Below are positions 2,959 through 52,497 of a stretch of 64,000 nucleotides of DNA, in pieces (the first letter of the stretch is position 1; each line of letters starts with the position of its first letter). The DNA comes from Planctomycetota bacterium (GTDB taxonomy: Bacteria; Planctomycetota; Planctomycetia; Pirellulales; Pirellulaceae). The position numbers were made by a program, and so were the translations under genes. The stretch covers positions 30,099 through 94,098 of the forward strand of contig JBCBOT010000001.1 of assembly GCA_039821165.1 (NCBI GenBank). The letters are read 5' to 3'. The notes beneath the pieces are model-generated. The model was not told the DNA's origin. It saw nothing but the letters and a program-made list of their open reading frames with translations, and ran no database searches.

Positions 2959-5900
2959 ATGGAGGGTTTGGGCGTCCGAATTTGGTTGTCGTGTTTGATG
3001 TTGCTTGGGTCGCTGTTGGTGTCGACGGCGGGGGCTCAAGACTTGAAATGGGTCACGAGCAAACCGCTTCCCGATTGGACCTGGGACGCCGCGGGATCGA
3101 AAAATGGCCAAAAGATTTACTTGCGAAAAAACTTTGCGATCACCCAGCCCATCAAGTCGGCGAAGGTCTATGCGACATGCGACAACAAGATGACGCTGTG
3201 GATCAACGGCGAGGAAGTCGGGAAGGCACGGGACTGGATGTACCCGCTGGTGACCGACGTTTCCAAGCAGCTTGCGTCAAGCCAAAACACCATCGCGGTC
3301 GAGGCGAGAAACGAAGGCGGAATCGCTGCGTTCGTGCTGAAGTTGGTGATCGATCACGGTGATTCAAAGACGATCGTGCTTTCCGACTCGACTTGGAAGA
3401 TGTCGCCGAGAGCCGCCAAGAATTGGACGGCGCAGGACTTCGATGACAGTTCCTGGCGTGGCAAGTTGAAATCGAGTGGCAAACTGGGTGTGTCGCCTTG
3501 GGGCGTCCTTGCTGTTCGTCGTGGCGGGTCCGGTGGACAGATTGCAGCGACAGATGAAATGGAAGTGGCAGAAGGCTTTGTCGTCGATCATCTCTACACC
3601 GTTCCTCGAGAAAAACAGGGATCGTGGGTCTCGTTGACGGTTGGGCCAGACGGACGTTTGATTGCCTGCGATCAAGGCGACAAGGGAGCGTTCTTCATTG
3701 CCGTCGGTGACTCGAAGACGAAACCGACGGTGCGAGTCGAGCCGATCGACGTCAATTCTCCGGGTAGCTCCAATCGTCTGAGCGGCGCACAGGGTTTGTT
3801 GTGGGCGTTCGACGCACTGTGGTTTCATCGTAACGGCGGGCATCTCTATCGGATCACGGACACCGACTCCGATGGCAAACTCGACACGGCGCAGCAACTG
3901 CCGAGTCAACGCGGCGGCGGTGAGCATGGCAACCACGCGCTGATTCTGACGGAGGATGGAACGGGCATTTACATGGACGGCGGCAATCACGCGCCGCTGG
4001 CCGAGACCTCTCGAAGTCGTGTTCAATCGTGGGAGGAAGACTTGTTGCTACCGCGCATGTGGGATGCAAATGGCCATGCGCGTGGCAAGTTGGCTCCTGG
4101 CGGATGGGTGACGCGACTCGACCCCGAAACGATGCAACAAGAATTGGTCTGCATCGGTTTTCGAAACCAGTACGACATCGCTCTCAATCGTCACGGTGAC
4201 TTGTTTACCTACGATGCGGACATGGAATGGGACATGGGCTCGCCCTGGTATCGTCCGACACGCGTTTGCCAAGTCGTCAGCGGTGGCGACTTTGGATGGC
4301 GGAGTGGCACGGGCAAGTGGCCGACGTACTACGAGGATTCCCTTCCACCGGTCGTCGACATCGGACCGGGATCGCCGACGGGCGTTGCGGCCGGATTGGG
4401 TGCAGCGTTTCCCGCCAAGTACCAGGACGCGATCTTCGCGCTTGATTGGACCTTCGGAACGATCTATGCGATCCACATGCAGCCTGAAGGGGCTGGCTAC
4501 AAAGGAACAAGCGAACCATTCGTGACGGGATCGCCGTTGCCCGTGACAGATGCCGTGGTAGGCAAGGATGGCGCGCTGTATTTCACGGTCGGAGGTCGAG
4601 GAACTCAATCCGCTCTTTATCGAGTTCGGTATGTCGGTTCGGCGAGTACCGCTCCAGCCAGTGAGGCACTTCCGAAAGCGGTTGCCGAGGCGAGGCGTCA
4701 ACGCAAATCGCTGGAAGCCTATCATGGCAAGTCGTTGAGTGGAGACGCGGCGAAGCAGGCGATCGACGCGGCTTGGCCATTCCTCGCCAGTGGAGATCGC
4801 TTCTTAAGGCATGCCGCCCGCGTGGCGATTGAATCGCAACCGGTCGAGTTGTGGGCGACACGTGCGATGAAGGAAGCCGAGCCGCAAGCAAGGATCACCG
4901 CCGCCGTCGCGCTTGCACGATCCGGCGGATCGGAGCACAAGAGTGAGCTTTTAAAGTCACTGCTCCAACTCGACTCGGCTTCTTTGACTGAATCGCAGTT
5001 GCTCGGCCTGCTGCGTGCCTACGCACTCACCACGATTCGACTTGGTGAGCCCGATGAGATGGAACGCGAGGCATTGATCGATGAACTCGATCCGCTGTTG
5101 CCGCATGCGAGCGAAGACGTCAATACGGAGTTGGTTCGAGTGCTGGTCTCACTACGCGCACCGAATGTGATCGAGAAAACGATGGCCTTGATCCGTGGTC
5201 GCAACGCCCCCTCGCTACCGGATTGGTCGGAGCTTGCGTCGAGAAATGCTCGCTACGGCGGCACGGTTCAGAAGATTCTCGACAACCCACCGCCTCGTGA
5301 GTTGAGCTACGCATTGATGCTTCGCACCTTGCGTGACGGTTGGACGCTCGCGCAACGCCGCGAGTACTTTGAGTTCTTGAACGTCACCGCCAAATGCGCC
5401 GGGGGCGCGAGTTACCCAGGATTCATGCGGAACATCCGCGACGAGGCGCTCTCCTGGTGCAGCGACGATGAACGTGTCGCACTGCAGGACATCACAGGTG
5501 AACGGTATGACCCGGTTCCTGATTTCGAGATCAAGCCGATCCAAGGTCCCGGTCGAACGTGGACGTTGGAAACGGCTCGATCACAGGCGGCGAACCGATT
5601 CAAGCAGGCGGACTTTGAGAACGGACGCAGTTTGTATTTCGCGGCCAGTTGCGGTAAGTGCCATCGCTTTTCGGGATTGGGTGGCAACATCGGTCCGGAC
5701 TTGACGACGATCCCGCGCAAGTTCGATGTTGGCTACTTGATCGAGCACATCATTGAACCGAGCAAAGTCATCTCGGATCAGTATCAGTCCTCATCGGTAC
5801 TCACCAGCGACGGTCGGAGCTACGTCGGGTTAATGAGCGAGGCCGATGGGAAAGTGGTGATCTACCCGGCGGACGTGAAGGCAGAGCCGATCTCACTGGA

Positions 5901-42499: not shown

Positions 42500-44203
42500 C
42501 TACTTACGGAACGGGTTCTTGAAAGTCGGTTTGGCGGGAGCCGTGACCGCTTGACTGCCGACCGTCGCTCCGGGAGCCGGTTGCACGTTCACGGCAGTTT
42601 GCCCCGACACTCCGATGGCACCGGCTGATTGGCCTTGAGTCGCTAACGCAGCTCCGTTGCCGCCATCGACTCCGGCTGCGAAGGCAGCCCCGCCTGTCGA
42701 GCCGAGTGCCATTGCGTTGCCGCCCTGCCCGGCAATGCCAAGACCTTGACCGCCAGCCTCTCCGATACCGATGCCGGTTCCGCCATCGACGCCAATGCCG
42801 ACTCCTTCGCCGCCATCCAGGCCAACCCCGATACCGGTTCCGCCGTTCGCTCCGATACCGGTGCCAACGCCACCGTTGACGCCGAGTCCTTTGCCGACGC
42901 CGCCATCGATGCCGATGCCAGTCCCCTGACCACCGTTGATGCCGATGCCTTTTCCGTAGCCGCCGTTGATTCCGACACCGGTTCCGATGCCGCCATTGAT
43001 GCCAACACCTTTGCCGACACCGCCGTTGATTCCAACGCCTTCACCGTATCCACCGTTGACACCGATCCCTTTGCCAACGCCACCGTTGATGCCGAGTCCC
43101 TTGCCGACTGCGCCGTTGACGCCGATTCCTTGACCCATGCCGCCGTTTACGCCGATGCCTTCGCCGTAGCCACCGTTGATGCCGACACCTTTACCGATGC
43201 CGCCGTTCATGCCGACACCACGTCCGACGCCTCCGTTGATTCCGACTCCCTTGCCATAGCCGCCGCGGTAACCTTCGCCGATTCCGACGCCGCCGTTGTG
43301 ACCGATACCGTGTCCGAATCCACCTTGGCTTCCAACGCCGAGTCCGACGCCTCCGTTGTGTCCTTCACCAAAACCAAAACCGCCTTCGGTACCGACGCCG
43401 ATTCCGGTGCCTCCGTTATTGCCCATACCGAGTCCAACGCCACCGGAATCTCCGATGCCAACACCCGTGCCGCCGTTCTTGCCGATTCCGATTCCGACGC
43501 CACCGTTGGATCCCACGCCGACTCCCGTGCCGCCTCCGGTACCGATGCCGATACCCACACTGCCTTTGGTGCTCGCGCCGACACCACCGCCGTTGGACGA
43601 TTGACCGGTTCCGCCGTTGACGCCGACACCAATGCCACCGAGCTTCGAATCCACGCCGACACCGACACCGCCTTGGCCGTCGATTGAAACGTTTGCGGGA
43701 CCCTTACCGAAATTCAGTTGCGGACCGTTATTGCCCATCCCGATTCCGATCCCGTTTTTTGGGCTGCTACCTCCGAGACTGTAGCCAGGTCCCGATGGCC
43801 CGCCGATCACATGACCAGACCCTGCTGGACCGCCGAACGCAGGGGCGGAGCCGCCGATCACATGATTCGAAATCCCCGAGCGTTGCTGCGGCAACAACCC
43901 TTGGATGCCTCCTCCGCTGAATGGCACGTGGGTCCCGGACGAGCTGCCGCCGAAGTTCGGGATGATGCCGCGGGGAAATCCAGTGCCACCGTTAGACGGC
44001 TGCACCGCCGGCATCGCGTTGCCACGAGGCATGAAACCACTGCGGATTCCGTTCCCGCCATTCTGCCCGCCCGAGTTCTTGATGCCTTGTTTGATCAGAT
44101 TGCCGAGGTCGAATTGGGCGTGCGCCGTTGCAATCGGCACAAACGCAAGAACCAGAGCGGCAATGAGCGTTGGCGGTCGGTGAATTCGTTGGAGAGTCTT
44201 CAT
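42500..44203 (-). CDS. Secreted glycine-rich decapeptide-repeat protein (GGxGxGxGxN)
   Basis: Signal peptide ending AHA|QF from MKTLQ (44203); 27 consecutive G-x-x-G-x-G-x-G-x-x units at 43564-42755, then 6 degenerate units. Confidence 0.85.
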   Translation of the reverse strand: MKTLQRIHRPPTLIAALVLAFVPIATAHAQFDLGNLIKQGIKNSGGQNGGNGIRSGFMPRGNAMPAVQPSNGGTGFPRGIIPNFGGSSSGTHVPFSGGGIQGLLPQQRSGISNHVIGGSAPAFGGPAGSGHVIGGPSGPGYSLGGSSPKNGIGIGMGNNGPQLNFGKGPANVSIDGQGGVGVGVDSKLGGIGVGVNGGTGQSSNGGGVGASTKGSVGIGIGTGGGTGVGVGSNGGVGIGIGKNGGTGVGIGDSGGVGLGMGNNGGTGIGVGTEGGFGFGEGHNGGVGLGVGSQGGFGHGIGHNGGVGIGEGYRGGYGKGVGINGGVGRGVGMNGGIGKGVGINGGYGEGIGVNGGMGQGIGVNGAVGKGLGINGGVGKGIGVNGGYGEGVGINGGVGKGVGINGGIGTGVGINGGYGKGIGINGGQGTGIGIDGGVGKGLGVNGGVGTGIGANGGTGIGVGLDGGEGVGIGVDGGTGIGIGEAGGQGLGIAGQGGNAMALGSTGGAAFAAGVDGGNGAALATQGQSAGAIGVSGQTAVNVQPAPGATVGSQAVTAPAKPTFKNPFRK

Positions 44204-44398
44204 GGTTGGCTCCGCTGCTTGCTGGGATCGTGATTTTTTGGAGAGCCGATCGCTCCCCAACAACCCATAGGCAAACGCCGCCGAGCAGGGACAACCTTTT
44301 CCGAGATTTCTTTTCTCCGCTCGAATCCAACTCGTCAGCAATGAACGCTACCCATGTGTCCGTCCGAAAAGGTGCAACGCAGTGCATCTCATCTGAGA

Positions 44399-44585
44399 GG
44401 TAACCCGAAACGTCAGTGAGGGAAAGCGAGTCTCGCACCGTCGCGGAGTCCCTTGCTAACGCGGCGGGTTACCCACGTTGGACATCTCGCCCAAAAAGTG
44501 CAACGCACGGGTAACCCGAAACGTCAGTGAGGGAAGCAGGTCTCGCGCACCGTCATGGAGCGCCTTGCTCACACGGCGGGTGAAC
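44399..44585. repeat. Two REP family A hairpins
   Basis: GTAACCCGAAACGTCAGTGAGGGA...TCCCTTGCTAACGCGGCGGGTTAC (44399-44473) and a degenerate second copy (44510-44585). Confidence 0.85.
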
Positions 44586-44633
44586 TTAGAGAAACGCGCG
44601 CGAGATCTGGTCCCTGCCCGTTAAAACCCATCC

Positions 44634-45254
44634 TTAGGCGAAGCCGCCGGCGGAACGCAATTTCGCCAGTGCACGCACGTGCCGCTTCTTCGCCGCTTCA
44701 TGGCTGATGCCGAGAACGATCGCAACCTCTGGACCCGACAACTGCTCAAAGTGCCAAAGCGCCAGGATTTCCCGATCCGCCTCCGACAACGCATCCAAGG
44801 CCGCACGCAGCTTGTCCTGCGTTTCCCGCTGCGAGACGACTCGCGAAGGCGTCGGCTGACTGGAAGACAACTCCATCGCGATGCAACCGGAGTTTGCCGG
44901 TGGAATCCCCTCCAAGTCACGCTCGCGGCGAACGTCGCGTCGCTTCGCATTGAGATGCCGACGATGCGCTTGCGTCAGACTTTGAAGTAGAAGCTTTCGA
45001 AGCCAGAGAAACACGGGCATTGGTCGTGTTTCCAGAAAACGTTCCAAACCATCGATCGCTTGCACAAATACTTCTTGCACGATGTCACAAGCGTCGATTC
45101 TCCCAGCCAGCGCCGGATGAAGCCGCAACTGAACCGTCCGCTCTAACCGTGCCGAGTACTGTTCAAAGAAATGGGTCAGCGCACCATCATTGTCCTGTTG
45201 GCTGAGGGCCAAGAGCTTGTCTGTCTGGTCGTCATCGATTTGAGGCGAAGTCAT
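44634..45254 (-). CDS. ECF sigma-70 factor, planctomycete kinase-associated type (TIGR02984-like)
   Basis: LRLHPALAGRIDACDIVQE...DREILALWHFEQLS..EVA..LGIS..AAKKRHVRAL. Confidence 0.9.
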   Translation of the reverse strand: MTSPQIDDDQTDKLLALSQQDNDGALTHFFEQYSARLERTVQLRLHPALAGRIDACDIVQEVFVQAIDGLERFLETRPMPVFLWLRKLLLQSLTQAHRRHLNAKRRDVRRERDLEGIPPANSGCIAMELSSSQPTPSRVVSQRETQDKLRAALDALSEADREILALWHFEQLSGPEVAIVLGISHEAAKKRHVRALAKLRSAGGFA

Positions 45255-45274
45255 ATCCACGGAAGCCTCTCCAT

Positions 45275-48200
45275 CTATCGAGATTGGTGCGAGGATCGCT
45301 TCGGAATCCACCAAGCATCGATCAAACGCCCATGACGTTCGTTCCCGGAACGATCGGTGATCCTTGTTTCGGTTTCTGCTTGATCCCGACTGAAATCAAA
45401 CAGCAATTCGCATCCTTCATGATTCGTTAGCTCGGACTCGGGTACAAAACCATCTTGGTAGAGCACCCGACTGGAGACCCGGACGGCTCGAATCAAACCC
45501 TCGCCCTTGGGGAGATAGGCGTTGCGATAGATTGAATCCCCAACAAAGAAGGGAGTCTTGACCGGCGGCGCGAACACTGCGGTCGGGATGCACTTCGCCT
45601 CGTTGGCCAGTACTCCATTGACGAACAAGCGTTCGTTTTCTCCGTCATTGCAGAGTGCCACATGAACCCAATGATCTGCTTGAAGCCGTGGCGATGGCAA
45701 GCGAATCCCACTCCTCGCTTGGACGCGCGATGCGTAGAGATCAGCGTAGCTGCGTGAGCGGAGAGGCCTGAATTGGGTTGCGATGGGTGATTCGTGAGCC
45801 TCGATCGAATGACTCCATCGCTGCACCCACGCCTCGATGGTGAAGCCGGAGAATTCATGAAACGGAAGACTTGGAGCGACAATGCGTGCTTCGCCATGGA
45901 GAAATAGGCAGGGTTCGCCGCAAATCATGCGCTTGGCGTTCAAATAATCTGCAAGCGTTTCGGCCGGCGGTCGTAAGTCCGCCGTGATTCGGCCTCGCAC
46001 CGAGAGATACCAGGGATCTTGCGGCGATTGAGCGATCGCTTTGTCGATGGACTCTTTCGCTCGCTCTTCCGCCCGCAAACGGCGTTTGCGAGTCGACAGT
46101 TGATCGGGATACCGCAAGGTGGACCAGATACTGACATCGTTGTCGAACCGATTCGCAGCGAGCTTTCTTCCATCGGGGCTGAAACGCACGCAGCCATCGA
46201 ATTGATAATCTTTCGGTCGAGGCCCGCGGCTGAGTTTGAGAACTTCCTCGCCGGCGAGATTCCAAACCGTCACGTCATCTCGGTTGGCTCCCGCGATTCG
46301 GTCTCCGTTGGGATGCCAGTGCAATTGTTCCACGTTCGGCGGGATCTTCATTTCGGCGATCGGTTTCCAACCCATCTCGCGATCGGGATCACTGGTCGCG
46401 AAGATACCCGCGTTTCCGTCCGTGGTCGCGAACGCGAATCGCCTTGAGTCCGCCGAAAAGTCCAGAGCGGAGATCCCCATACGGTCAGGCGGAAACATCG
46501 CGTCTGGCTCAAGCTCAAGTTCAATCCATTGGGCGTTGAGTGTGGGCATCTGAACGAGACCGATCGAATGGACAAAACCGCCTTGCGAATTCTGATCAGC
46601 AACCGAACGCGCTCCAACTAAAAGCCGGCTTCCGTCCGAATTGAGGCTGAGCTCATGGCACCCGCGCGAGAATCGTCGACGCTCAATCAACGACCATGCG
46701 CTCTTTGTCTCGTCAAAGCTCCAGCAATAGAGAATCGATTCTGAATCGGATTCGCTTGCCGGACAACACGCGACGAGTACTCTGCCGTCGCCGCTCATCG
46801 AAACACAGTTTGCGATTGAATCAAGCGGTTCCGTCGAGTGGACCCGACTGCCACTTTCGACATCATAGATTGCGATTGTCTGATCTTTCTGGACGACAGC
46901 CAATTGATTCCCGGCTTCGTCAAAGCACGCCTCTCGCCGGGAGGCGACTTGGGGAATACCAGCGATCCAATGGAGTTTGAGCAGCCTTCCGCTCTCCGCC
47001 TCGTAAACTTCGATTCGTTTTTCCTGGTAAACAGCGATGCCTGAGCCGCCCCATCGAAATGCAATCGCCTCGGTACCAGGGTAGTTCGAGGTTTTAGTAG
47101 GCGTCTCGCATCGCACATACTCCGGTCGCGAATCGGGTCTCCAAATCCGCACCTGCCCGCTCCAATCACCCGACGCAATCCATTCGCCGTCATGACTGAT
47201 CGCCAAGCTCTGAACGCGATCGGGATGTCCATGCAGCACCCGGACCGGACGGTCCTTGGTCACGTCCCAAACACAGATGCTACCGTCGGTGGCGCCGGTC
47301 GTGATCAGGCCTCGCCCTTCGTGAACTGCGCAAACCGGTTGATAGTAGCTTTTTTGATTGATGAGATGATCTTCGGTGCCTCTCAACTGTTTCCGCAGCG
47401 TTCCATCGCCCAAAGACCTCAACGCCAGGTCGCCGCCATCAACGCAGTCGACGATCAGCCCTAAGCCGGGTGAATAGAGTGCTGACGCAGCAACGGTCTC
47501 GATTGGCTCGGCGAGCCTCTCACCGGTTTCGACATCAAGCATCACTCTTCTCGCCAAATCGGGATAATTCTCCGGCGGTGATTCGCTGTAGTAGTACTCG
47601 ATGGCCTCGATCGTATCGCTCTCATTCGAATCGGCGAGTTCGGTCAGCGTGACGAGGTCGGCACTCCAAACCTGTTCACCCGTTTCCGCGTCCCATGCAG
47701 CGGTCCGAGCGTGTTGAATCCTGTTTCGATTCCAAATCGTCCCGAGAACCAAACGATCATCCGCTGAGAAGCGCAGCCGATAAACCCGTTGATCTTTGGG
47801 AAGCTCCAGCTTCGTAACGACCTCCCTTGATTCGAGTTCCCAAATTTGAACGAACCCCTCCCAACCGGTTTCAAAGTGATTGGTTGCAATCGCTTCGGAG
47901 ACGGCGGCGAAACGACTGTCATGACTGAAGGCGATGTCATAGGCCGAGTGTTCGACCGGTAACTCGCAAACCATCTTCGCAGTTCGCGTGTCCCAAAACG
48001 TCGCGCGGCCTTTGGGTGAGACCCCCCGCGGCCGGACAAACTCAGGCCTTCCTGTTGCGACGGCGATTAGCGAATCGTCGTGACTAAACGTCAAATCCCA
48101 AATCCACTCTGCCTGCGGCGCCGGAATATCAAAGACCGCGACATGCTGGTGCACCAGCGCTTGCAGGTAACCCCATTCCCAGCCCCGACGATCGGTTTGT

Positions 48201-49957
48201 TTTGAACCTGGGATCAGCTGGTCGAGCAACTCGCCAGCCGATTGAGCATCGGTCTCACTGAGCATCTTGACCCGGTCGATCGCGGCGCGGTAGAGCGCGG
48301 ACTCCGCGATTTCCAATCGCTCTTCGGCGAGTGTCTGATTCTTGCCGGCTGCCTTTTGCGCCGAACGTGCGATCTTTGTCTTGATGTTCGCGTCGACGAG
48401 TGCCTCTTCTGCACGAAGCCAACTCCACGCGACGAGCCCGAAAGAAACCAGGAAGAGTGTTGCGAGCGCCGCGGTCAAACCGGACACCAATGGCCTCCGG
48501 CGTATCCATTTGTGCAAACGTTCCAAATTGGTGATCGCGCGAGCCTTGATGGGTTCTCCCACCAGAAAACGCTGAAGGTCTCGCTCAAGTTCCGATGGGG
48601 AGGCATAGCGTTTTGCGGGCTCCTTCTCGATAGCTTTGAGAACGATCGTTTCCAAGTCTTTGGGAACGTTCGAGTTGATCTTTCGTGGAGGAACCGGGTC
48701 TCGCTCCGCGATCGCGCGGATCAGTTGGCTGCGATGCAGTTCTTTGAATGCCGGTTGCAGCGCGAGCAATTCATAGAGCGTCAGACCCAAACTGTAGACA
48801 TCGCTCCGAGACTCGGGCTGCCCCACGCATTGCTCCGGTGCCATGTAGCGGAGCGTCCCGATCATTTCGCCATCGCGTGTCAAATCATCTTCTTCCGTCG
48901 ATTTGGCGAGGCCGAAATCCATGACCCAAACGATGCCTGCCTGATCGAGCATCAAGTTAGCCGGCTTGATGTCTCGGTGCAGTGTGCCCTGGGCGTGTGC
49001 GTACGCTAAAGCATTGGCCACCTGCATGCCGATCTTCGCGACACTTTCCCAATACTTGCCGATATGGCTCGCGCTCCCTGATGACGTTGGTAATGCCGTC
49101 ACACCAGGAAGACTCACGTCAGCTGAGAGCGCGGTGGTTTTTGAAGGAAAGGAAACCGGTTCCAACGTTTCATGTGCTGCATCGATTGATGCCTCTTCCG
49201 CAAAGGCCTGCTCATCCGACACCGCCCCGCTCCCAAAAAGAGACCGAGCCACCTCGGAGGCTTCCGAGTGGACCTTCGGTTCGGCAGAGCCTGCGTTTAA
49301 TCGGGTGGTGGCCGTGGGCGAAGACTGCCACAGCTTCCTCAATTCGCGGATGACCTCGTCGAGCGAAGCTCCTCGAATGAACTGCATCGCGTAGAACAAC
49401 CGACCGTCTTCTTCACCGACCGCGAAGACCGGGACGATGTTGGTGTGGTGCAACATCGCCGCCGCGCGGGACTCTCGTCGGAAGCGTTCGCTATTACGCG
49501 GACTCATTTGGACCGTGGCGGGACACACTTTGAGCGCGACGTGTCGACCCAATGATTCTTGGAGCGCCTCGTAAACGATTCCCATCCCGCCACGACCGAT
49601 CACGCGACGAATCTTGAAGTCGCCGAGTCGGTCGAGTTGCGAGTCCTGGGATCTCGCCTCATCCGTTCCGCTGGGTGCGTTGTCTTCCATGAGCAACATC
49701 ATGGGAAAGACTTCATCGATTCGATCGGCGAGGTCTGGATAGTCTCGCTTGTAATGATCGATGTCGGGGTTCGCGCCCGCGCGGTAACGCTCCAGGTACT
49801 CGTTGGCCAAGTCAATGATCAGATCCGACGCATCGTCGTTTGCTTCCGATGAGAGTGCGGGTTTGGACTCCTGCTCAGAGCCAAACTTCGCAGCATCAAT
49901 GCGAAGCGTGTTTGAGGGGCAGGAACTCCCGCCAGGCACTTCGGAATCGGCGCTCAT
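45275..49957 (-). CDS. Ser/Thr kinase with TM/coiled coil, WD40 repeats and C-terminal LamG/ConA-like domain
   Basis: IGRGGMG, HRDIKPAN, DFG, YMAPE; GH...W-D/x repeats (LHGHPDRVQSLAISHDGEWIASGDWSGQVRIW); FTIEAWV...WVHVALC...LFVNG. Confidence 0.92.
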   Translation of the reverse strand: MSADSEVPGGSSCPSNTLRIDAAKFGSEQESKPALSSEANDDASDLIIDLANEYLERYRAGANPDIDHYKRDYPDLADRIDEVFPMMLLMEDNAPSGTDEARSQDSQLDRLGDFKIRRVIGRGGMGIVYEALQESLGRHVALKVCPATVQMSPRNSERFRRESRAAAMLHHTNIVPVFAVGEEDGRLFYAMQFIRGASLDEVIRELRKLWQSSPTATTRLNAGSAEPKVHSEASEVARSLFGSGAVSDEQAFAEEASIDAAHETLEPVSFPSKTTALSADVSLPGVTALPTSSGSASHIGKYWESVAKIGMQVANALAYAHAQGTLHRDIKPANLMLDQAGIVWVMDFGLAKSTEEDDLTRDGEMIGTLRYMAPEQCVGQPESRSDVYSLGLTLYELLALQPAFKELHRSQLIRAIAERDPVPPRKINSNVPKDLETIVLKAIEKEPAKRYASPSELERDLQRFLVGEPIKARAITNLERLHKWIRRRPLVSGLTAALATLFLVSFGLVAWSWLRAEEALVDANIKTKIARSAQKAAGKNQTLAEERLEIAESALYRAAIDRVKMLSETDAQSAGELLDQLIPGSKQTDRRGWEWGYLQALVHQHVAVFDIPAPQAEWIWDLTFSHDDSLIAVATGRPEFVRPRGVSPKGRATFWDTRTAKMVCELPVEHSAYDIAFSHDSRFAAVSEAIATNHFETGWEGFVQIWELESREVVTKLELPKDQRVYRLRFSADDRLVLGTIWNRNRIQHARTAAWDAETGEQVWSADLVTLTELADSNESDTIEAIEYYYSESPPENYPDLARRVMLDVETGERLAEPIETVAASALYSPGLGLIVDCVDGGDLALRSLGDGTLRKQLRGTEDHLINQKSYYQPVCAVHEGRGLITTGATDGSICVWDVTKDRPVRVLHGHPDRVQSLAISHDGEWIASGDWSGQVRIWRPDSRPEYVRCETPTKTSNYPGTEAIAFRWGGSGIAVYQEKRIEVYEAESGRLLKLHWIAGIPQVASRREACFDEAGNQLAVVQKDQTIAIYDVESGSRVHSTEPLDSIANCVSMSGDGRVLVACCPASESDSESILYCWSFDETKSAWSLIERRRFSRGCHELSLNSDGSRLLVGARSVADQNSQGGFVHSIGLVQMPTLNAQWIELELEPDAMFPPDRMGISALDFSADSRRFAFATTDGNAGIFATSDPDREMGWKPIAEMKIPPNVEQLHWHPNGDRIAGANRDDVTVWNLAGEEVLKLSRGPRPKDYQFDGCVRFSPDGRKLAANRFDNDVSIWSTLRYPDQLSTRKRRLRAEERAKESIDKAIAQSPQDPWYLSVRGRITADLRPPAETLADYLNAKRMICGEPCLFLHGEARIVAPSLPFHEFSGFTIEAWVQRWSHSIEAHESPIATQFRPLRSRSYADLYASRVQARSGIRLPSPRLQADHWVHVALCNDGENERLFVNGVLANEAKCIPTAVFAPPVKTPFFVGDSIYRNAYLPKGEGLIRAVRVSSRVLYQDGFVPESELTNHEGCELLFDFSRDQAETETRITDRSGNERHGRLIDAWWIPKRSSHQSR

Positions 49958-50559
49958 TCGGTCACCAACTTGCGAAGTCGGGCGAGCGCTCGAATATGGC
50001 GTGAACCGGCCGCCTTCTCTGAGATCTTCAGAACGTTCGCCGTTTCTTTCTGTGAGAGTTGCTCGAAATGTCTGAGAGAGAGCACCTCGCGATCCATCGG
50101 ATCCATCTGGCCGAGCGCTTGCTCTAGTCGCACGCGGACCTCGGCGCGAACCGCTGCTTGGCTCGCAGTGGTTAATTGCCCGACCAGCTGCGCCGCGAGC
50201 GCGGCCGAAGTCGCCGTGGAAACGAGCGGGGCGTGGATCGAGACTTCGCGTCCGGCATCGCGCGCCTTGGTACCGAGGTGTCTTCGGTGTGCTTGGGAGA
50301 GTTTTTGAAGGGCGAGGAACCGCAGCCAGACGAAGAGTGGAACTTCCTGCGAACCCAGGTATTCATCGGCGCGCTCGCATGCTTCGAGCTGCGTCTCCTG
50401 AATCACGTCCGACGCATCCACGCGACCGCGCACCCGGGGGTCCAAACGGATCTCGACGAGACGACGCAAGCGGTCCCGGTGTTCCTGCAACGAATCTTGA
50501 AAGCTCGATCGATCCAAGGTGCTCTGCTGGAGAGTCGCTGAGTTTTGGTAGCTAGCCAC
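49954..50559 (-). CDS. ECF sigma-70 factor, planctomycete kinase-associated type (TIGR02984-like)
   Basis: GTG start with GAGGAGG; RLDPRVRGRVDASDVIQET...DREVLSLRHFEQLS; ATGA overlap with the kinase start. Confidence 0.92.
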   Translation of the reverse strand: MASYQNSATLQQSTLDRSSFQDSLQEHRDRLRRLVEIRLDPRVRGRVDASDVIQETQLEACERADEYLGSQEVPLFVWLRFLALQKLSQAHRRHLGTKARDAGREVSIHAPLVSTATSAALAAQLVGQLTTASQAAVRAEVRVRLEQALGQMDPMDREVLSLRHFEQLSQKETANVLKISEKAAGSRHIRALARLRKLVTE

Positions 50560-50631
50560 GAAGATACCTCCTCAAGCACTACTACCAAGCGAAATCACCG
50601 GGCTGCTGCTATTTTTGGATTTTTGCAGAAT

Positions 50632-52341
50632 TCAACGATCGATGCGCGTCTCCGGCGATGAATTGCCGCCACGCTGTCGGTTGCGAGGCCCTCCGGGCGG
50701 TCGCGGACGATCGTCGCCGAAACGGTTGTTACCCTGCCCACCTGGAAGACCGCCGGGGCGGCCCCGAGGTCCACTTTCATCCTCGTTATCAAATCGTCGA
50801 TCACGATCACGACCGCCGGGTGGCTCCGGCGGAGGGGGCATGGCGGCCAATTCCTCCGTGCTGAGAAATCCATCTTCGTTTGAGTCGGCTTCCATCATCC
50901 GTGCACGCTCCAATTCAGGAATCTCCGACTCGCTCAGCTTGCCATCGTCGTTCGTATCGAACTGCCGTAAGAGTCGATTCACCGTTGGCTTGAAGAACCC
51001 GCCGCGATTGAGGTCTTGCGACGAATCCATTTCGTTCGCTTCACCAACAGACTCAGCATCCGACGCTTCCGCCGTCGTCGCTCTGTCGTCGTTGGTCGTT
51101 TCAGTAACTTGTTCAGAATCCTCGACGGGCGTCTTGCTTGGCTCCGACATGAAGAACAACAGACCGGGACCCAAAATTAATCCAAGGAGCAAACACCCTG
51201 CCGCAATCATCAAGACTGGAGGCGTCTTGCGAGGTCGATGCGCTCCCGGCCCGCGAAACGTTTGAACTTGATCCGTGTCCACCGACGGTAAATTGTCAAA
51301 CGGATTGGCAGCGGGTGTCGCGGGGCTACTCGAAGGCTCCACGGAAACCGGTTGTGTGACAGCCGCCGCGACGACCGGTTTGGTTCCCTTCTTTCGAGTC
51401 GACTTTTCAGCACCGCGAACAAACTTGGACAATGCCGCCGCGAAGTGCTTCATCGAAGCGAAGCGTTGCTCGACGTCTTTGGAGATCGCGCGTTCCACAA
51501 TCTTGCACAACCGTGGATCGACTCCCGGACGAAGGTCTTCGAGTTTGCGTGGCTCTTGCGTCAGAATATGCGTCAACAACGTGAGCGTGCTGGCGGAATC
51601 CTTGAACGGAAGTGAACCGCTGAGTGACTCAAACAACACAACGCCTAGAGCGTACTGATCGGTCGCGGGGCCGATGGAGTCACCGCGGAGTTGCTCCGGC
51701 GGCATGTAGGCCGGCGAACCAATCAGTGTTCCCTCTTGCGTGAGACGCGACTCGTCGTTCGCTTCGCTGGGGCAAGCCAATCCGAAATCCATCACGACCG
51801 GTTCCTTGCGGTGGTCGATCATGATGTTCGCGGGTTTCAAATCGCGATGGAGAATCCCGTTTTGGTGCGCTTCGGCCATCGCCAAGGCGACTTTCTGAAC
51901 GATGTTCGCGACGACCTTTTCGCTTTGCGGATTCTCTTTATCGATGTACTCCGAGAGTGGTCGACCTTTGATGTAGGCCATCGCGATGCAATGGATGCCA
52001 TCAATCTCGGTCACGTCATAGATCGGACAAAGGTTGGGATGGGTGATTTTTGCGGCCGCACGAGCCTCACGATAAAACCGTTCGCGCGCCTTGTCGTTTT
52101 CCTTGAGATCCGCTTTGGGCACCTTGAGCGCGACGTCACGATCGAGTTGCTCGTCGCGGGCCAGGTACACAGACCCCATCCCCCCACGACCGAGAAGCTT
52201 ACTGACTTCATAGCGACCGAGTTTCACCGGTAGCGCGTTTTCCGCCAGAGGTCCCTCGCCCCCCCGCGTATCCGACGCGGAAAAGTCGAGGGTCTCCTTC
52301 AGGTTGGAGTCAGACCGTTCTTTCCGAGTTTCTCTGGCCAT
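50632..52341 (-). CDS. Ser/Thr kinase with TM and two C-terminal EF-hands
   Basis: LGRGGMG, HRDLKPAN, DFG, YMPPE; TM IAAGCLLLGLILGPGLLFF; DTNDDGKLSESE and DSNEDGFLSTEE. Confidence 0.9.
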   Translation of the reverse strand: MARETRKERSDSNLKETLDFSASDTRGGEGPLAENALPVKLGRYEVSKLLGRGGMGSVYLARDEQLDRDVALKVPKADLKENDKARERFYREARAAAKITHPNLCPIYDVTEIDGIHCIAMAYIKGRPLSEYIDKENPQSEKVVANIVQKVALAMAEAHQNGILHRDLKPANIMIDHRKEPVVMDFGLACPSEANDESRLTQEGTLIGSPAYMPPEQLRGDSIGPATDQYALGVVLFESLSGSLPFKDSASTLTLLTHILTQEPRKLEDLRPGVDPRLCKIVERAISKDVEQRFASMKHFAAALSKFVRGAEKSTRKKGTKPVVAAAVTQPVSVEPSSSPATPAANPFDNLPSVDTDQVQTFRGPGAHRPRKTPPVLMIAAGCLLLGLILGPGLLFFMSEPSKTPVEDSEQVTETTNDDRATTAEASDAESVGEANEMDSSQDLNRGGFFKPTVNRLLRQFDTNDDGKLSESEIPELERARMMEADSNEDGFLSTEELAAMPPPPEPPGGRDRDRRFDNEDESGPRGRPGGLPGGQGNNRFGDDRPRPPGGPRNRQRGGNSSPETRIDR

Positions 52342-52497
52342 CTCGTTTGGTTCGTCGGCGTCATTCGTGGAACGCCTGAATCGCAGCCTCGCACCCAGGA
52401 ATTTCCAACACAACTATAGTACAGTCGCGGTCGGATCGAGAGGACTCGATTGACAAAGGGAATTGAGTCTTCGAAATGGAAAAAGTCGACGCAAACG

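What the first reader, a model, noticed from the sequence alone, without database searches (positions are those of the whole stretch)
45084..50418. Paralogous sigmas differ at the putative phospho-switch: DASD vs DACD
Seen: the sigma2.2 motif (canonically DAED) is DASD at 50407-50418 and DACD at 45084-45095. Known: kinase-associated ECFs replace acidic residues here with Ser/Thr whose phosphorylation restores RNAP binding. Inference: one sigma is kinase-activated; the Cys variant may be thiol/redox-gated, use another site, or act as a decoy.
Basis: partly seen in the sequence, partly recalled or inferred. Interest (0 to 1): 0.62.

Follow-up and report, generated by a model that had tools for sequence, protein, structure and literature searches.

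The report
Kinase-linked sigma pair: Ser versus Cys
Two related sigma factors flanking a receptor kinase gene in a planctomycete differ at one residue (Ser vs Cys). The Ser is strongly conserved and may be a phosphorylation site, while the Cys is a recent, dispensable-looking substitution and shows little sign of being a redox switch.

Summary
On the minus strand, sigS (49954-50559) reads RVDASDVIQE and sigC (44634-45254) reads RIDACDIVQE, at the stated coordinates. They are 43% identical ECF sigma factors of the Planctomycetota kinase-linked family (best NCBIfam hit TIGR02984, below cut-off). They flank a 1560-aa Hanks kinase with WD40 and LamG domains in a tight sigma-kinase-sigma operon. 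That operon is conserved in at least four other assemblies.

- Both proteins keep the whole core-binding motif DxxDxxQE. The EcfP/ECF43 logic, where phosphate replaces missing acidic residues, therefore does not transfer directly.
- In the sigS subfamily, Ser at position 3 is nearly invariant (117/120; never Thr, Asp or Glu). It remains a plausible modulatory phospho-acceptor.
- In the wider family the position is S 61%, D/E 21%, A 8%, C 1%. Kinase adjacency is the same for Ser and Asp forms.
- In another kinase-coupled orthogroup the position varies freely (A/S/V/L/G/T/F/C/I).
- The sigC Cys occurs only in three close lineages. The 70%-identical syntenic orthologue has Ala.

SigC has most likely just lost this hydroxyl and is controlled by co-expression or elsewhere. 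One weak hint for a thiol pair remains: both sigC cysteines (C56, C124) are missing together in that orthologue (p about 0.04).

The parts
49954..50559 (-). sigS: 201-aa ECF sigma factor (TIGR02984-like), first gene of the sigma-kinase-sigma unit; its stop overlaps the kinase start (ATGA)
   Evidence: orthologues in L001, L002, L003
50407..50418 (-). DASD (D48-A49-S50-D51) of sigma region 2.2 in sigS; the S50 codon TCG is at 50410-50412
   Evidence: Ser is 117/120 in the sigS subfamily
45275..49957 (-). 1560-aa Hanks-type Ser/Thr kinase with an N-terminal helical region, a kinase domain carrying a ~90-aa insert, one TM segment, WD40 beta-propellers and a C-terminal LamG/ConA-like domain. All catalytic motifs are present (GxGxxG, VALK, HRDIKPAN, DFG, APE).
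   Evidence: orthologues of 1550-1674 aa in L001/L003; 40%-identical paralogue on contig C72
44634..45254 (-). sigC: 206-aa ECF sigma factor, paralogue of sigS (43% identity); it starts 20 nt after the kinase stop
45084..45095 (-). DACD (D54-A55-C56-D57) of sigma region 2.2 in sigC; the C56 codon TGT is at 45087-45089
   Evidence: Cys occurs only in window/P0002/L003/P0003, Ala (GCT) in L001
44883..44885 (-). C124, the second and only other Cys of sigC. It lies in the conserved amphipathic linker helix (S122-x-x-L125-A126-x-x-L129). It is lost (Tyr) together with C56 in the L001 orthologue.
44844..44852 (-). T135-P136-S137 of sigC: the family-wide conserved linker motif T-[ST]-P-S just before the first sigma-4 helix. 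It is a candidate alternative regulatory or contact site.
50632..52413 (-). Upstream Hanks kinase (up to 593 aa) with a TM segment and EF-hand motifs, 73 nt upstream of sigS. Conserved only in the closest relatives (L002, L003), not in L001.
50580..50606 (-). Promoter-like motif GCAGCC-N15-GTAGTA, 21 nt upstream of the sigS start. The pattern GCAKCC-N15-GYAGTA is conserved upstream of sigS in all four loci with DNA.

Best explanation
SigS and sigC are intact paralogous ECF sigma factors of the Planctomycetota family that is genomically coupled to Hanks Ser/Thr kinases. They are co-transcribed with a receptor kinase as a sigma-kinase-sigma operon. Both keep the complete canonical RNAP-core-binding motif DxxDxxQE, so neither is an intrinsically inactive EcfP-type sigma.

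The Ser of sigS occupies the position of the ECF43 phospho-Thr, in the first turn of helix 2.2. It is under strong purifying selection in its subfamily. It is most likely a functionally important residue, and the best guess is a modulatory phospho-acceptor that adds charge to the beta'-clamp-helix contact.

The Cys of sigC is a lineage-specific replacement of that hydroxyl at a site that many kinase-coupled relatives do without (Ala in the nearest orthologue). SigC is therefore probably not gated at sigma 2.2. Its activity would be set by co-expression from the operon and/or through other sites, such as the conserved linker.

Shown here: anatomy, homology, conservation patterns and synteny. 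Inferred: phosphorylation of S50, the lack of gating at C56, and any cascade between the two sigmas.
For: - Motifs and paralogy.
- Operon: ATGA overlap between sigS and the kinase, and a 20-nt gap between the kinase and sigC. The triad is conserved in L001, L002, L003 and the P0002 contig.
- DxxDxxQE is kept: D54 97%, D57 99-100%, Q60 99-100%, E/D61 98-99%.
- SigS subfamily, position 3: S117/A2/G1 over 54-92% identity.
- Unbiased sample of 150 cluster representatives: S92, D20, E12, A12, G6, C2, T2. A Ser/acidic interchange is what is seen at validated sigma phosphosites (EcfK T106 column, PMC13147305).
- The Cys is restricted to three close lineages. Ala (GCT) in the 70% syntenic orthologue and Cys (TGT/TGC) are each one step from TCT Ser and two steps from each other.
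- A second kinase-coupled orthogroup (C61) at 75-98% identity has A67/S23/V13/L7/G3/T3/F2/C1/I1 at this position, with invariant flanks.
- SigC keeps all family-invariant residues and is under purifying selection, with pN about twice that of sigS.
- EcfK T51A remains functional when neighbouring charges are present (PMC13147305).
Against: - There is no phosphorylation evidence for any member of this family.
- Ser:Thr is 92:2, whereas ECF43 uses Thr. Together with D54 as N-cap and Pro/Ala at N1 in the AF2 model, this is equally compatible with a purely structural role for the Ser.
- Kinase adjacency does not depend on Ser versus Asp (31/36 vs 23/27, Fisher p=1.0). That sample was drawn with a pattern that allowed only S/A/D.
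- The sigS homologue search is word-seeded and may slightly favour Ser-bearing sequences.
- Both sigC cysteines are conserved across lineages with saturated synonymous divergence and are lost together in L001 (p about 0.04), which is not what a purely neutral reading predicts.
Confidence: 0.55

Rival explanations
1. Position 3 plays no regulatory role in either sigma. The Ser of sigS is structural, for example a first-turn or capping hydrogen bond of helix 2.2. The kinase acts on other sites (for example the invariant linker T-[ST]-P-S or S122) or on other substrates. The Ser/Cys difference is then functionally silent.
For: The full DxxDxxQE motif is kept. Ser outnumbers Thr 92:2. The AF2 helix starts at residue 55, with D54 at N-cap and P/A at N1. 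Kinase linkage is equal for S, D and A forms. Position 3 varies freely in the C61 orthogroup while its linker TTSPSG is invariant. EcfK T51A is functional and the linker T106 is the key site.
Against: A purely structural small-residue role would predict frequent Ala/Gly/Thr in the sigS subfamily, yet Ser is 117/120. The family-wide Ser/Asp/Glu alternation (84% S/T/D/E) resembles a charge-requiring site. The linker S/T-P motif is itself a helix N-cap motif (T135 precedes helix 136-155), so its conservation is not proof of phosphorylation either.
Confidence: 0.28
2. SigS is an EcfP-like sigma that is off until phospho-Ser restores RNAP binding, and sigC is a thiol/redox-gated counterpart. In that model a C56-C124 disulfide, or oxidation of C56, blocks the beta'-binding face. 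The operon would then integrate a kinase input and a redox input.
For: Position 3 is homologous to the ECF43 phospho-Thr (PMC8999054, PMC13147305). SigC has exactly two Cys. Both are conserved in three lineages with saturated dS and both are absent in the L001 orthologue (A56, Y124), with p about 0.04 for joint loss. The linker leaves helix 2.4 at the same end of the sigma-2 bundle as the N-terminus of helix 2.2, so proximity is geometrically possible (inference).
Against: The acidic core-binding residues are all present, so 'off until phosphorylated' lacks its structural basis. The L001 orthologue works in the same triad without either Cys. The linker Cys at column 124 recurs in 9 other family members that carry S, D or A at position 3, so it is not coupled to C56. 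Cys at position 3 is 1% of the family and a singleton in the C61 group. No coordinates were available to measure the C56-C124 distance.
Confidence: 0.1
3. SigC is a decoy or competitor. In this model it is a non-phosphorylatable paralogue that titrates the kinase or RNAP core and dampens sigS output.
For: It is co-transcribed directly behind the kinase. It lacks the hydroxyl at position 3. It evolves about twice as fast as sigS at non-synonymous sites.
Against: SigC keeps all invariant sigma-2 and sigma-4 residues of the family (R52, D57, Q60, W84, R86, R98, R106, E162, L181, R191). Its dN/dS is about 0.06-0.12 where measurable. The AF2 model is a normal ECF fold (pLDDT 86). It has clade-specific changes in sigma-4 (R167W) that suggest its own promoter specificity rather than decay.
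Confidence: 0.05

Closest known systems
EcfP/PknT of Vibrio parahaemolyticus (ECF43; Iyer et al. 2020, as summarised in PMC8999054 and PMC13147305)
   Same: An ECF sigma encoded next to a Hanks kinase with no anti-sigma gene. A hydroxyl residue sits at position 3 of the sigma 2.2 'DAED' motif, which is where EcfP Thr63 is phosphorylated.
   Different: EcfP has STTA (ECF43 consensus QTTA): all acidic residues are missing, so it is intrinsically inactive. SigS and sigC keep D1, D4, Q7 and E8. The residue is Ser or Cys rather than Thr. Two sigmas flank one kinase.
EcfK/PknS of Xanthomonas citri (ECF43; PMC13147305)
   Same: It retains a negative charge next to the sigma 2.2 hydroxyl (QATE). T51A is still functional, and a second site in the sigma2-sigma4 linker (T106) is the important one. 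This shows that position 3 can be dispensable and that linker sites matter.
   Different: It belongs to a different ECF group and phylum and has a single sigma per kinase. The linker motif here (T-[ST]-P-S before sigma-4) has not been shown to be equivalent to T106.
Planctomycete kinase-associated ECF groups ECF59/ECF61/ECF62/ECF217 (Casas-Pastor et al. 2021, PMC7826278; review PMC8999054)
   Same: Planctomycetota ECFs that are co-encoded with Ser/Thr kinases instead of anti-sigma factors. The review states that these non-ECF43 groups keep a DAED-like motif, with Ser/Thr in or near it as possible kinase targets. That matches what is seen here.
   Different: No member has been characterised. 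Group assignment of sigS and sigC could not be made, because no group models are available here. The sigma-kinase-sigma triad and the Cys variant are not described in the texts I could read.
NCBIfam TIGR02984 (Sig-70_plancto1, Planctomycetaceae-specific subfamily 1)
   Same: It is the best-scoring curated model for both proteins, matched over the full length.
   Different: Both score below the curated cut-off (164.2 and 171.6 vs 183.75 bits).
Thiol-based sigma control such as RsrA-SigR (zinc-associated anti-sigma; own knowledge) and Cys-bearing ECF groups (PMC7826278 notes conserved Cys in several groups)
   Same: The idea that cysteine oxidation gates an ECF response.
   Different: In the known cases the redox sensor is the anti-sigma factor or a C-terminal extension, not sigma region 2.2. 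Here the Cys is shallowly conserved.

Membership tests
ECF (group 4) sigma-70 family | [quoted passage not shown] | tested here: met
   TIGR02937 sigma70-ECF scores 71 and 60 bits against a cut-off of 42.9. Pfam Sigma70_r4/r4_2 match. The AF2 model matches ECF sigma structures (SigH, SigE, AlgU, CnrH, SigW) at Foldseek probability 1.00.
TIGR02984 Sig-70_plancto1 | Score at or above the curated cut-off of 183.75 bits | tested here: not met
   164.2 bits (sigC) and 171.6 bits (sigS). It is the best hit over the full length but below the cut-off.
ECF43 (EcfP/EcfK type) | Adjacent Hanks-type Ser/Thr kinase and no anti-sigma factor gene | tested here: met
   Kinase genes lie directly up- and downstream. 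No anti-sigma domain was found among the neighbouring ORFs scanned. Family-wide, about 85% of members are kinase-adjacent.
ECF43 (EcfP/EcfK type) | Loss of the acidic residues of the sigma 2.2 DxxD motif (consensus QTTA) | tested here: not met
   Both sigmas have D-x-x-D-x-x-Q-E. D54, D57, Q60 and E61 are 97-100% conserved in the family.
ECF43 (EcfP/EcfK type) | Conserved Thr at position 3 (88% of ECF43) | tested here: not met
   SigS has Ser and sigC has Cys. Family counts are S92, T2 of 150.
ECF43 (EcfP/EcfK type) | Direct phosphorylation of the sigma by the cognate kinase | not testable with these tools
   Needs kinase assays or phosphoproteomics.
Planctomycete STK-associated ECF groups (ECF59/61/62/217) | Planctomycetota origin, kinase in the conserved neighbourhood, DAED-like motif retained | tested here: met
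   Relatives are Pirellulaceae, Planctomycetota, Gemmataceae and Isosphaeraceae MAGs. Kinase adjacency. Motif.
Planctomycete STK-associated ECF groups (ECF59/61/62/217) | Assignment by the ECF classification group HMMs | not testable with these tools
   The group models and supplementary descriptions are not held.
Thiol/redox-switch sigma | Cysteine(s) conserved across the orthogroup | tested here: not met
   C56 and C124 are present in window/P0002/L003/P0003 but are A56 and Y124 in the syntenic 70% orthologue L001/P0004.
Thiol/redox-switch sigma | Reversible oxidation that changes activity; the two Cys close in space | not testable with these tools
   The structure tool returns no coordinates. 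Biochemistry is needed.

The most novel reading that the evidence does not exclude
The sigma-kinase-sigma operon is a two-input device. The receptor kinase tunes sigS through phospho-Ser50. The co-transcribed sigC has swapped that hydroxyl for a thiol and is gated by oxidation: a C56-C124 disulfide would tie the conserved linker helix over the beta'-binding face of sigma 2.2. That would be the first sigma factor whose own region 2.2 is a redox switch. The only support is the joint conservation of both Cys in three lineages with saturated synonymous divergence and their joint loss in the L001 orthologue (p about 0.04, post hoc).
Probability: 0.07. Interest if true: 0.7.

Novelty: new member of a known kind. 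Interest (0 to 1): 0.3.

Why it matters
Direct phosphorylation of sigma factors is a recently established control mode, shown only for ECF43 (EcfP, EcfK). The much larger set of planctomycete kinase-coupled ECFs is uncharacterised.

This locus, and the comparative data gathered around it, show that the ECF43 'missing acidic residues' logic does not apply to this family. They also show that the homologous position behaves very differently between subfamilies: nearly invariant Ser in the sigS group, acidic in others, free-varying in a third. A conserved linker motif is a better family-wide candidate for kinase control.

That sharpens which mutants are worth making: sigS S50A/D and the linker T/S-P-S. 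The Ser/Cys contrast itself is probably not a special switch, so the finding is of modest interest.

Tried and rejected
1. Whether the Cys is deeply conserved: rejected. Only three close lineages carry it, and the 70% syntenic orthologue has Ala.
2. Whether Ser at position 3 predicts kinase adjacency: rejected in a sample of 77 loci from other genomes (S 31/36, D 23/27, A 6/9). The within-genome contrast is confounded by including other ECF families.
3. Whether the linker Cys124 is coupled to C56 across the family: rejected. Column 124 is Cys in 9 other members with S/D/A at position 3.
4. Whether a sigma downstream of a kinase generally lacks Ser: rejected. The C72 paralogous kinase-sigma module and L032/L078 have DASD.
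5. Whether sigC is a decaying or decoy gene: not supported.
6. A search for a regulon with the conserved promoter-like motif upstream of sigS gave only 2 genome hits against about 4 expected by chance, so no regulon could be defined.
7. The sigma-70 promoter and terminator scan was at background level.
8. Iyer et al. 2020 and the ECF-classification supplements could not be read. Statements about them rest on the reviews cited.
9. The AF2 model gave fold and helix boundaries but no coordinates, so the C56-C124 distance could not be measured.
Full report
**1. Observation**

Window 45084-45095 reverse-complements to GAC GCT TGT GAT (D-A-C-D). Window 50407-50418 reverse-complements to GAT GCG TCG GAC (D-A-S-D).

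They lie in two minus-strand ORFs:
- **sigS**, 49954-50559, 201 aa, with context RVDASDVIQE.
- **sigC**, whose longest ORF is 44634-45314. The gene as called in this genome and in all orthologues is 206 aa (44634-45254, MTSPQ...), with context RIDACDIVQE.

Both are ECF sigma factors. TIGR02937 is above its cut-off. The best specific model is TIGR02984 'Planctomycetaceae-specific subfamily 1' at 164 and 172 bits, just below its 183.75 cut-off. They are 43% identical to each other (E=4e-40).

The motif is the sigma region 2.2 'DAED' position:
- phmmer aligns sigS VDASDVIQE to CnrH TDVDDVVQD (PDB 4cxf).
- Unrelated ECFs of the same genome have DAED/EAED/QAED in this column.
- An AlphaFold2 model of sigC (pLDDT 85.9) is a normal ECF fold. 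Helix 2.2 starts at residue 55, so D54 is the N-cap and C56 lies in the first turn.

**2. Anatomy of the locus**

On the minus strand the order is as follows.
- A Hanks kinase with a TM segment and EF-hand motifs (50632-52413).
- After 73 nt, sigS.
- Overlapping by ATGA, a 1560-aa Hanks kinase (45275-49957). It has all catalytic motifs, one TM segment, WD40 propellers and a C-terminal LamG-like domain.
- After 20 nt, sigC.
- After a 292-nt spacer, the glycine-repeat protein gene (42500-44341).

No anti-sigma domain was detected.

The genome is a 9.07-Mb, 57% GC Pirellulaceae-like draft (names of relatives). It has about 141 kinase-like ORFs and about 36 ECF-like ORFs. Many sit in sigma-then-kinase pairs on one strand.

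The sigS-kinase-sigC triad is conserved in four other places:
- a Pirellulaceae MAG (L001; kinase 1550 aa);
- an ENA contig (L002; low-coverage assembly with frameshifts);
- a Planctomycetota MAG (L003);
- a Logan contig that carries P0002.

Synonymous sites are saturated between all of these (pS 0.69-0.85). Both sigmas are under purifying selection. SigC changes about twice as fast as sigS (pN 0.12-0.22 vs 0.05-0.12).

The EF-hand kinase is conserved only in the closest relatives (L002, L003), not in L001.

**3. What the position looks like across relatives**

(a) *The canonical core-binding pattern is intact.* The pattern DxxDxxQE is described as the beta'-contacting polar surface in PMC13147305. 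In 163 family members D54 is 97%, D57 99%, Q60 99% and E/D61 98%. In an unbiased set of 150 representatives of 50%-identity clusters, D57 and Q60 are 150/150. Only position 3 departs from DAED.

This differs from ECF43. There EcfP reads STTA and the group consensus is QTTA, and the lack of acidic residues is what makes the sigma inactive until Thr is phosphorylated (PMC8999054, PMC13147305). [quoted passage not shown] That is the situation here.

(b) *Position 3 across the family.* In the unbiased 150 the counts are S 92, D 20, E 12, A 12, G 6, C 2, T 2, Q 2, H 1, F 1.

(c) *SigS subfamily.* In 120 hits at 54-92% identity the counts are S 117, A 2, G 1, with no Thr and no acidic residue, while position 2 flips freely between A and P. 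The Ser is therefore strongly constrained in that subfamily. The search is word-seeded, so a slight bias towards Ser is possible.

(d) *A control orthogroup.* A second kinase-coupled ECF of the same genome (contig C61, DPCD, with a 733-aa kinase 117 nt downstream) belongs to a large Pirellulaceae orthogroup. Its 120 closest members are 75-98% identical. Position 3 reads A 67, S 23, V 13, L 7, G 3, T 3, F 2, C 1, I 1. The flanking D-P-x-D-I-V-Q and the linker TTSPSG are invariant. In that group the position is free, and Cys is a singleton.

(e) *Kinase adjacency.* In 77 loci from other genomes, a kinase within 500 nt on the same strand is as common for Asp forms (23/27) as for Ser forms (31/36) and is frequent for Ala forms (6/9). 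Fisher's test for S versus D gives p=1.0. That sample was drawn with a pattern allowing only S/A/D, so it says nothing about Cys frequency.

**4. The Cys**

DACD is found only in the window, P0002/L003 (95% identical to each other) and P0003/L002. That makes three independent lineages at 76-84% identity.

The next relative, at 68-70% identity and with the same triad synteny, has DPAD. The next hits are 48% identical or less and mostly DASD.

The Cys codons are TGT/TGT/TGC and the Ala codon is GCT. Each is one step from TCT Ser and two steps from the other. This fits two independent departures from an ancestral Ser.

SigC has one other Cys, C124, in a conserved amphipathic linker helix (S122-x-x-L-A-x-x-L; helix 122-130 in the model, pLDDT about 70). 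It is also present in the three Cys lineages and absent (Tyr) in L001.

Among the four Cys-bearing sequences, 149 of 208 columns are invariant, and 19.5% of those differ in L001. Joint loss of two named positions therefore has p about 0.04. This is a post hoc calculation.

Against a coupled pair, column 124 is Cys in 9 other family members that carry S, D or A at position 3.

**5. Mechanism**

The best-supported reading has three parts.
- Both sigmas can bind core through an intact DxxDxxQE surface.
- The Ser of sigS is a functionally constrained residue at the position where ECF43 sigmas are phosphorylated. It is the best candidate in this operon for a kinase-dependent, modulatory charge. The family-wide Ser/Asp/Glu alternation (84% S/T/D/E) resembles that reported for the validated EcfK T106 column (76.9%; PMC13147305).
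- SigC has lost that hydroxyl, as have about 15% of the family. It is probably not gated at sigma 2.2, so its level and activity would follow operon expression and possibly other sites.

The EcfK work is a useful precedent. With one neighbouring charge retained (QATE), T51A is still functional, and the linker site T106 carries the effect.

In this family the linker motif T-[ST]-P-S is conserved more uniformly than position 3. Column 135 is S/T in 89-91% of members, P136 is 84-87% and S137 is 82-83% (93% S/T in the 163-sequence set). S122 is 74-85% conserved. Both sigS (TTAS) and sigC (PTPS) carry the linker motif. However, T135 also caps the first sigma-4 helix in the model, so conservation alone does not prove phosphorylation.

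The main rival, which I rate at about 0.28, is that the Ser is structural and position 3 is not regulatory at all. In its favour are the 92:2 Ser:Thr ratio and the first-turn location.

The redox reading keeps about 0.07-0.10. The decoy reading keeps about 0.05.

**6. Comparison with what is known, and novelty**

The pair works like, but is not a member of, ECF43. Kinase adjacency is met. Loss of the acidic residues and the conserved Thr are not met.

It fits the description of the uncharacterised planctomycete kinase-associated groups (ECF59/61/62/217). Formal assignment could not be tested here.

The sigma-kinase-sigma triad is not described in the texts I could read. It is conserved in at least five assemblies, and an unrelated one exists in L044 (DTAD - kinase - DADD). 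It is a modest elaboration of a known theme.

Overall this is a new member of a known kind. The headline contrast (Ser vs Cys as two kinds of switch) is probably not what it seemed. The more useful results are the subfamily-specific constraint on the Ser and the conserved linker motif.

**7. Earlier notes of this scan**

These were used only as context: the glycine-repeat protein downstream, the EF-hand kinase and a metallophosphoesterase upstream. A follow-up on a myxobacterial kinase-sigma pair reached a similar conclusion, that the ECF43 switch does not fit. None of these was taken as evidence.

Noticed in passing
window 44342-44633 (spacer between sigC and the glycine-repeat gene): Two tandem ~111-nt copies of a palindromic element. 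The 26-nt core GGTAACCCGAAACGTCAGTGAGGGAA is at 44399-44424 and 44510-44535, with inverted arms of 25-26 nt. The core occurs 39 times genome-wide at up to 4 mismatches, often in pairs. It looks like a REP/MITE-like intergenic repeat family. It appears to have displaced the promoter-like motif seen at this place in the orthologous loci.
   Followed up: partly
window 50580-50606 (-); L001 ~4737-4763, L002 and L003 upstream of sigS: A conserved promoter-like motif GCAKCC-N15-GYAGTA lies upstream of sigS in all four loci, including L001 where the upstream gene differs. There are only 2 matches in the whole genome, so no regulon could be defined. It is a candidate autoregulated promoter.
   Followed up: partly
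L001 10640-10670, L002 10690-10722, L003 7640-7672 (downstream of sigC, upstream of the glycine-repeat gene): A second conserved motif, TGTCCCCG-N15-17-GC(C/T)TA(C/T), sits between sigC and the next gene in three orthologous loci. It is not recognisable in the window. It may be the promoter through which one of the two sigmas drives the exported glycine-repeat/TPR genes.
   Followed up: partly
sigC residues 120-137 (window 44844-44897); same columns in sigS: The sigma2-sigma4 linker of this family is unusually conserved: A-[TS]-S-x-x-L-A-x-x-L (predicted short helix), then T-[ST]-P-S immediately before sigma-4. It is invariant (TTSPSG) in the C61 orthogroup. It is a candidate RNAP contact or alternative phosphosite cluster, by analogy with EcfK T104-S110.
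   Followed up: partly
genome contig C72: 9343-14473 (-): A paralogous module. A 1494-aa kinase, 40% identical over its full length to the 1560-aa kinase, is followed by a DASD sigma that is the closest paralogue of sigS. No sigma lies upstream of that kinase. This suggests the triad arose by joining a sigma to a kinase-sigma pair, or by duplication of such a pair.
   Followed up: partly
genome contig C61: 19053-19703 (-) and its orthologues P0223-P0342: A widely conserved Pirellulaceae kinase-coupled ECF orthogroup (Roseiconus, Stieleria, Novipirellula, Rubripirellula...). Position 3 of the sigma 2.2 motif is hypervariable (A/S/V/L/G/T/F/C/I). The usual Q-E of region 2.2 is Q-[LV]-T, so it has lost an acidic core-binding residue that sigS and sigC keep.
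   Followed up: partly
L044 3501-8684: An independent sigma-kinase-sigma triad in an uncultured Planctomycetaceae MAG: a DTAD sigma, a 1244-aa kinase, then a DADD sigma.
   Followed up: no
window 45275-49957, N-terminal ~100 aa of the kinase: A conserved helical segment precedes the kinase domain (..EYLERYRAG..PD..Y...YPDLADRIDEVFPMMLLMED..). It is shared with the C72 paralogue. Its function is unknown; it could be the sigma-docking region.
   Followed up: no
L002 4072-5968: In this 2.75x long-read ENA contig the sigS and kinase orthologues are split by frameshifts. Given the coverage, these are most likely assembly errors rather than pseudogenes.
   Followed up: no
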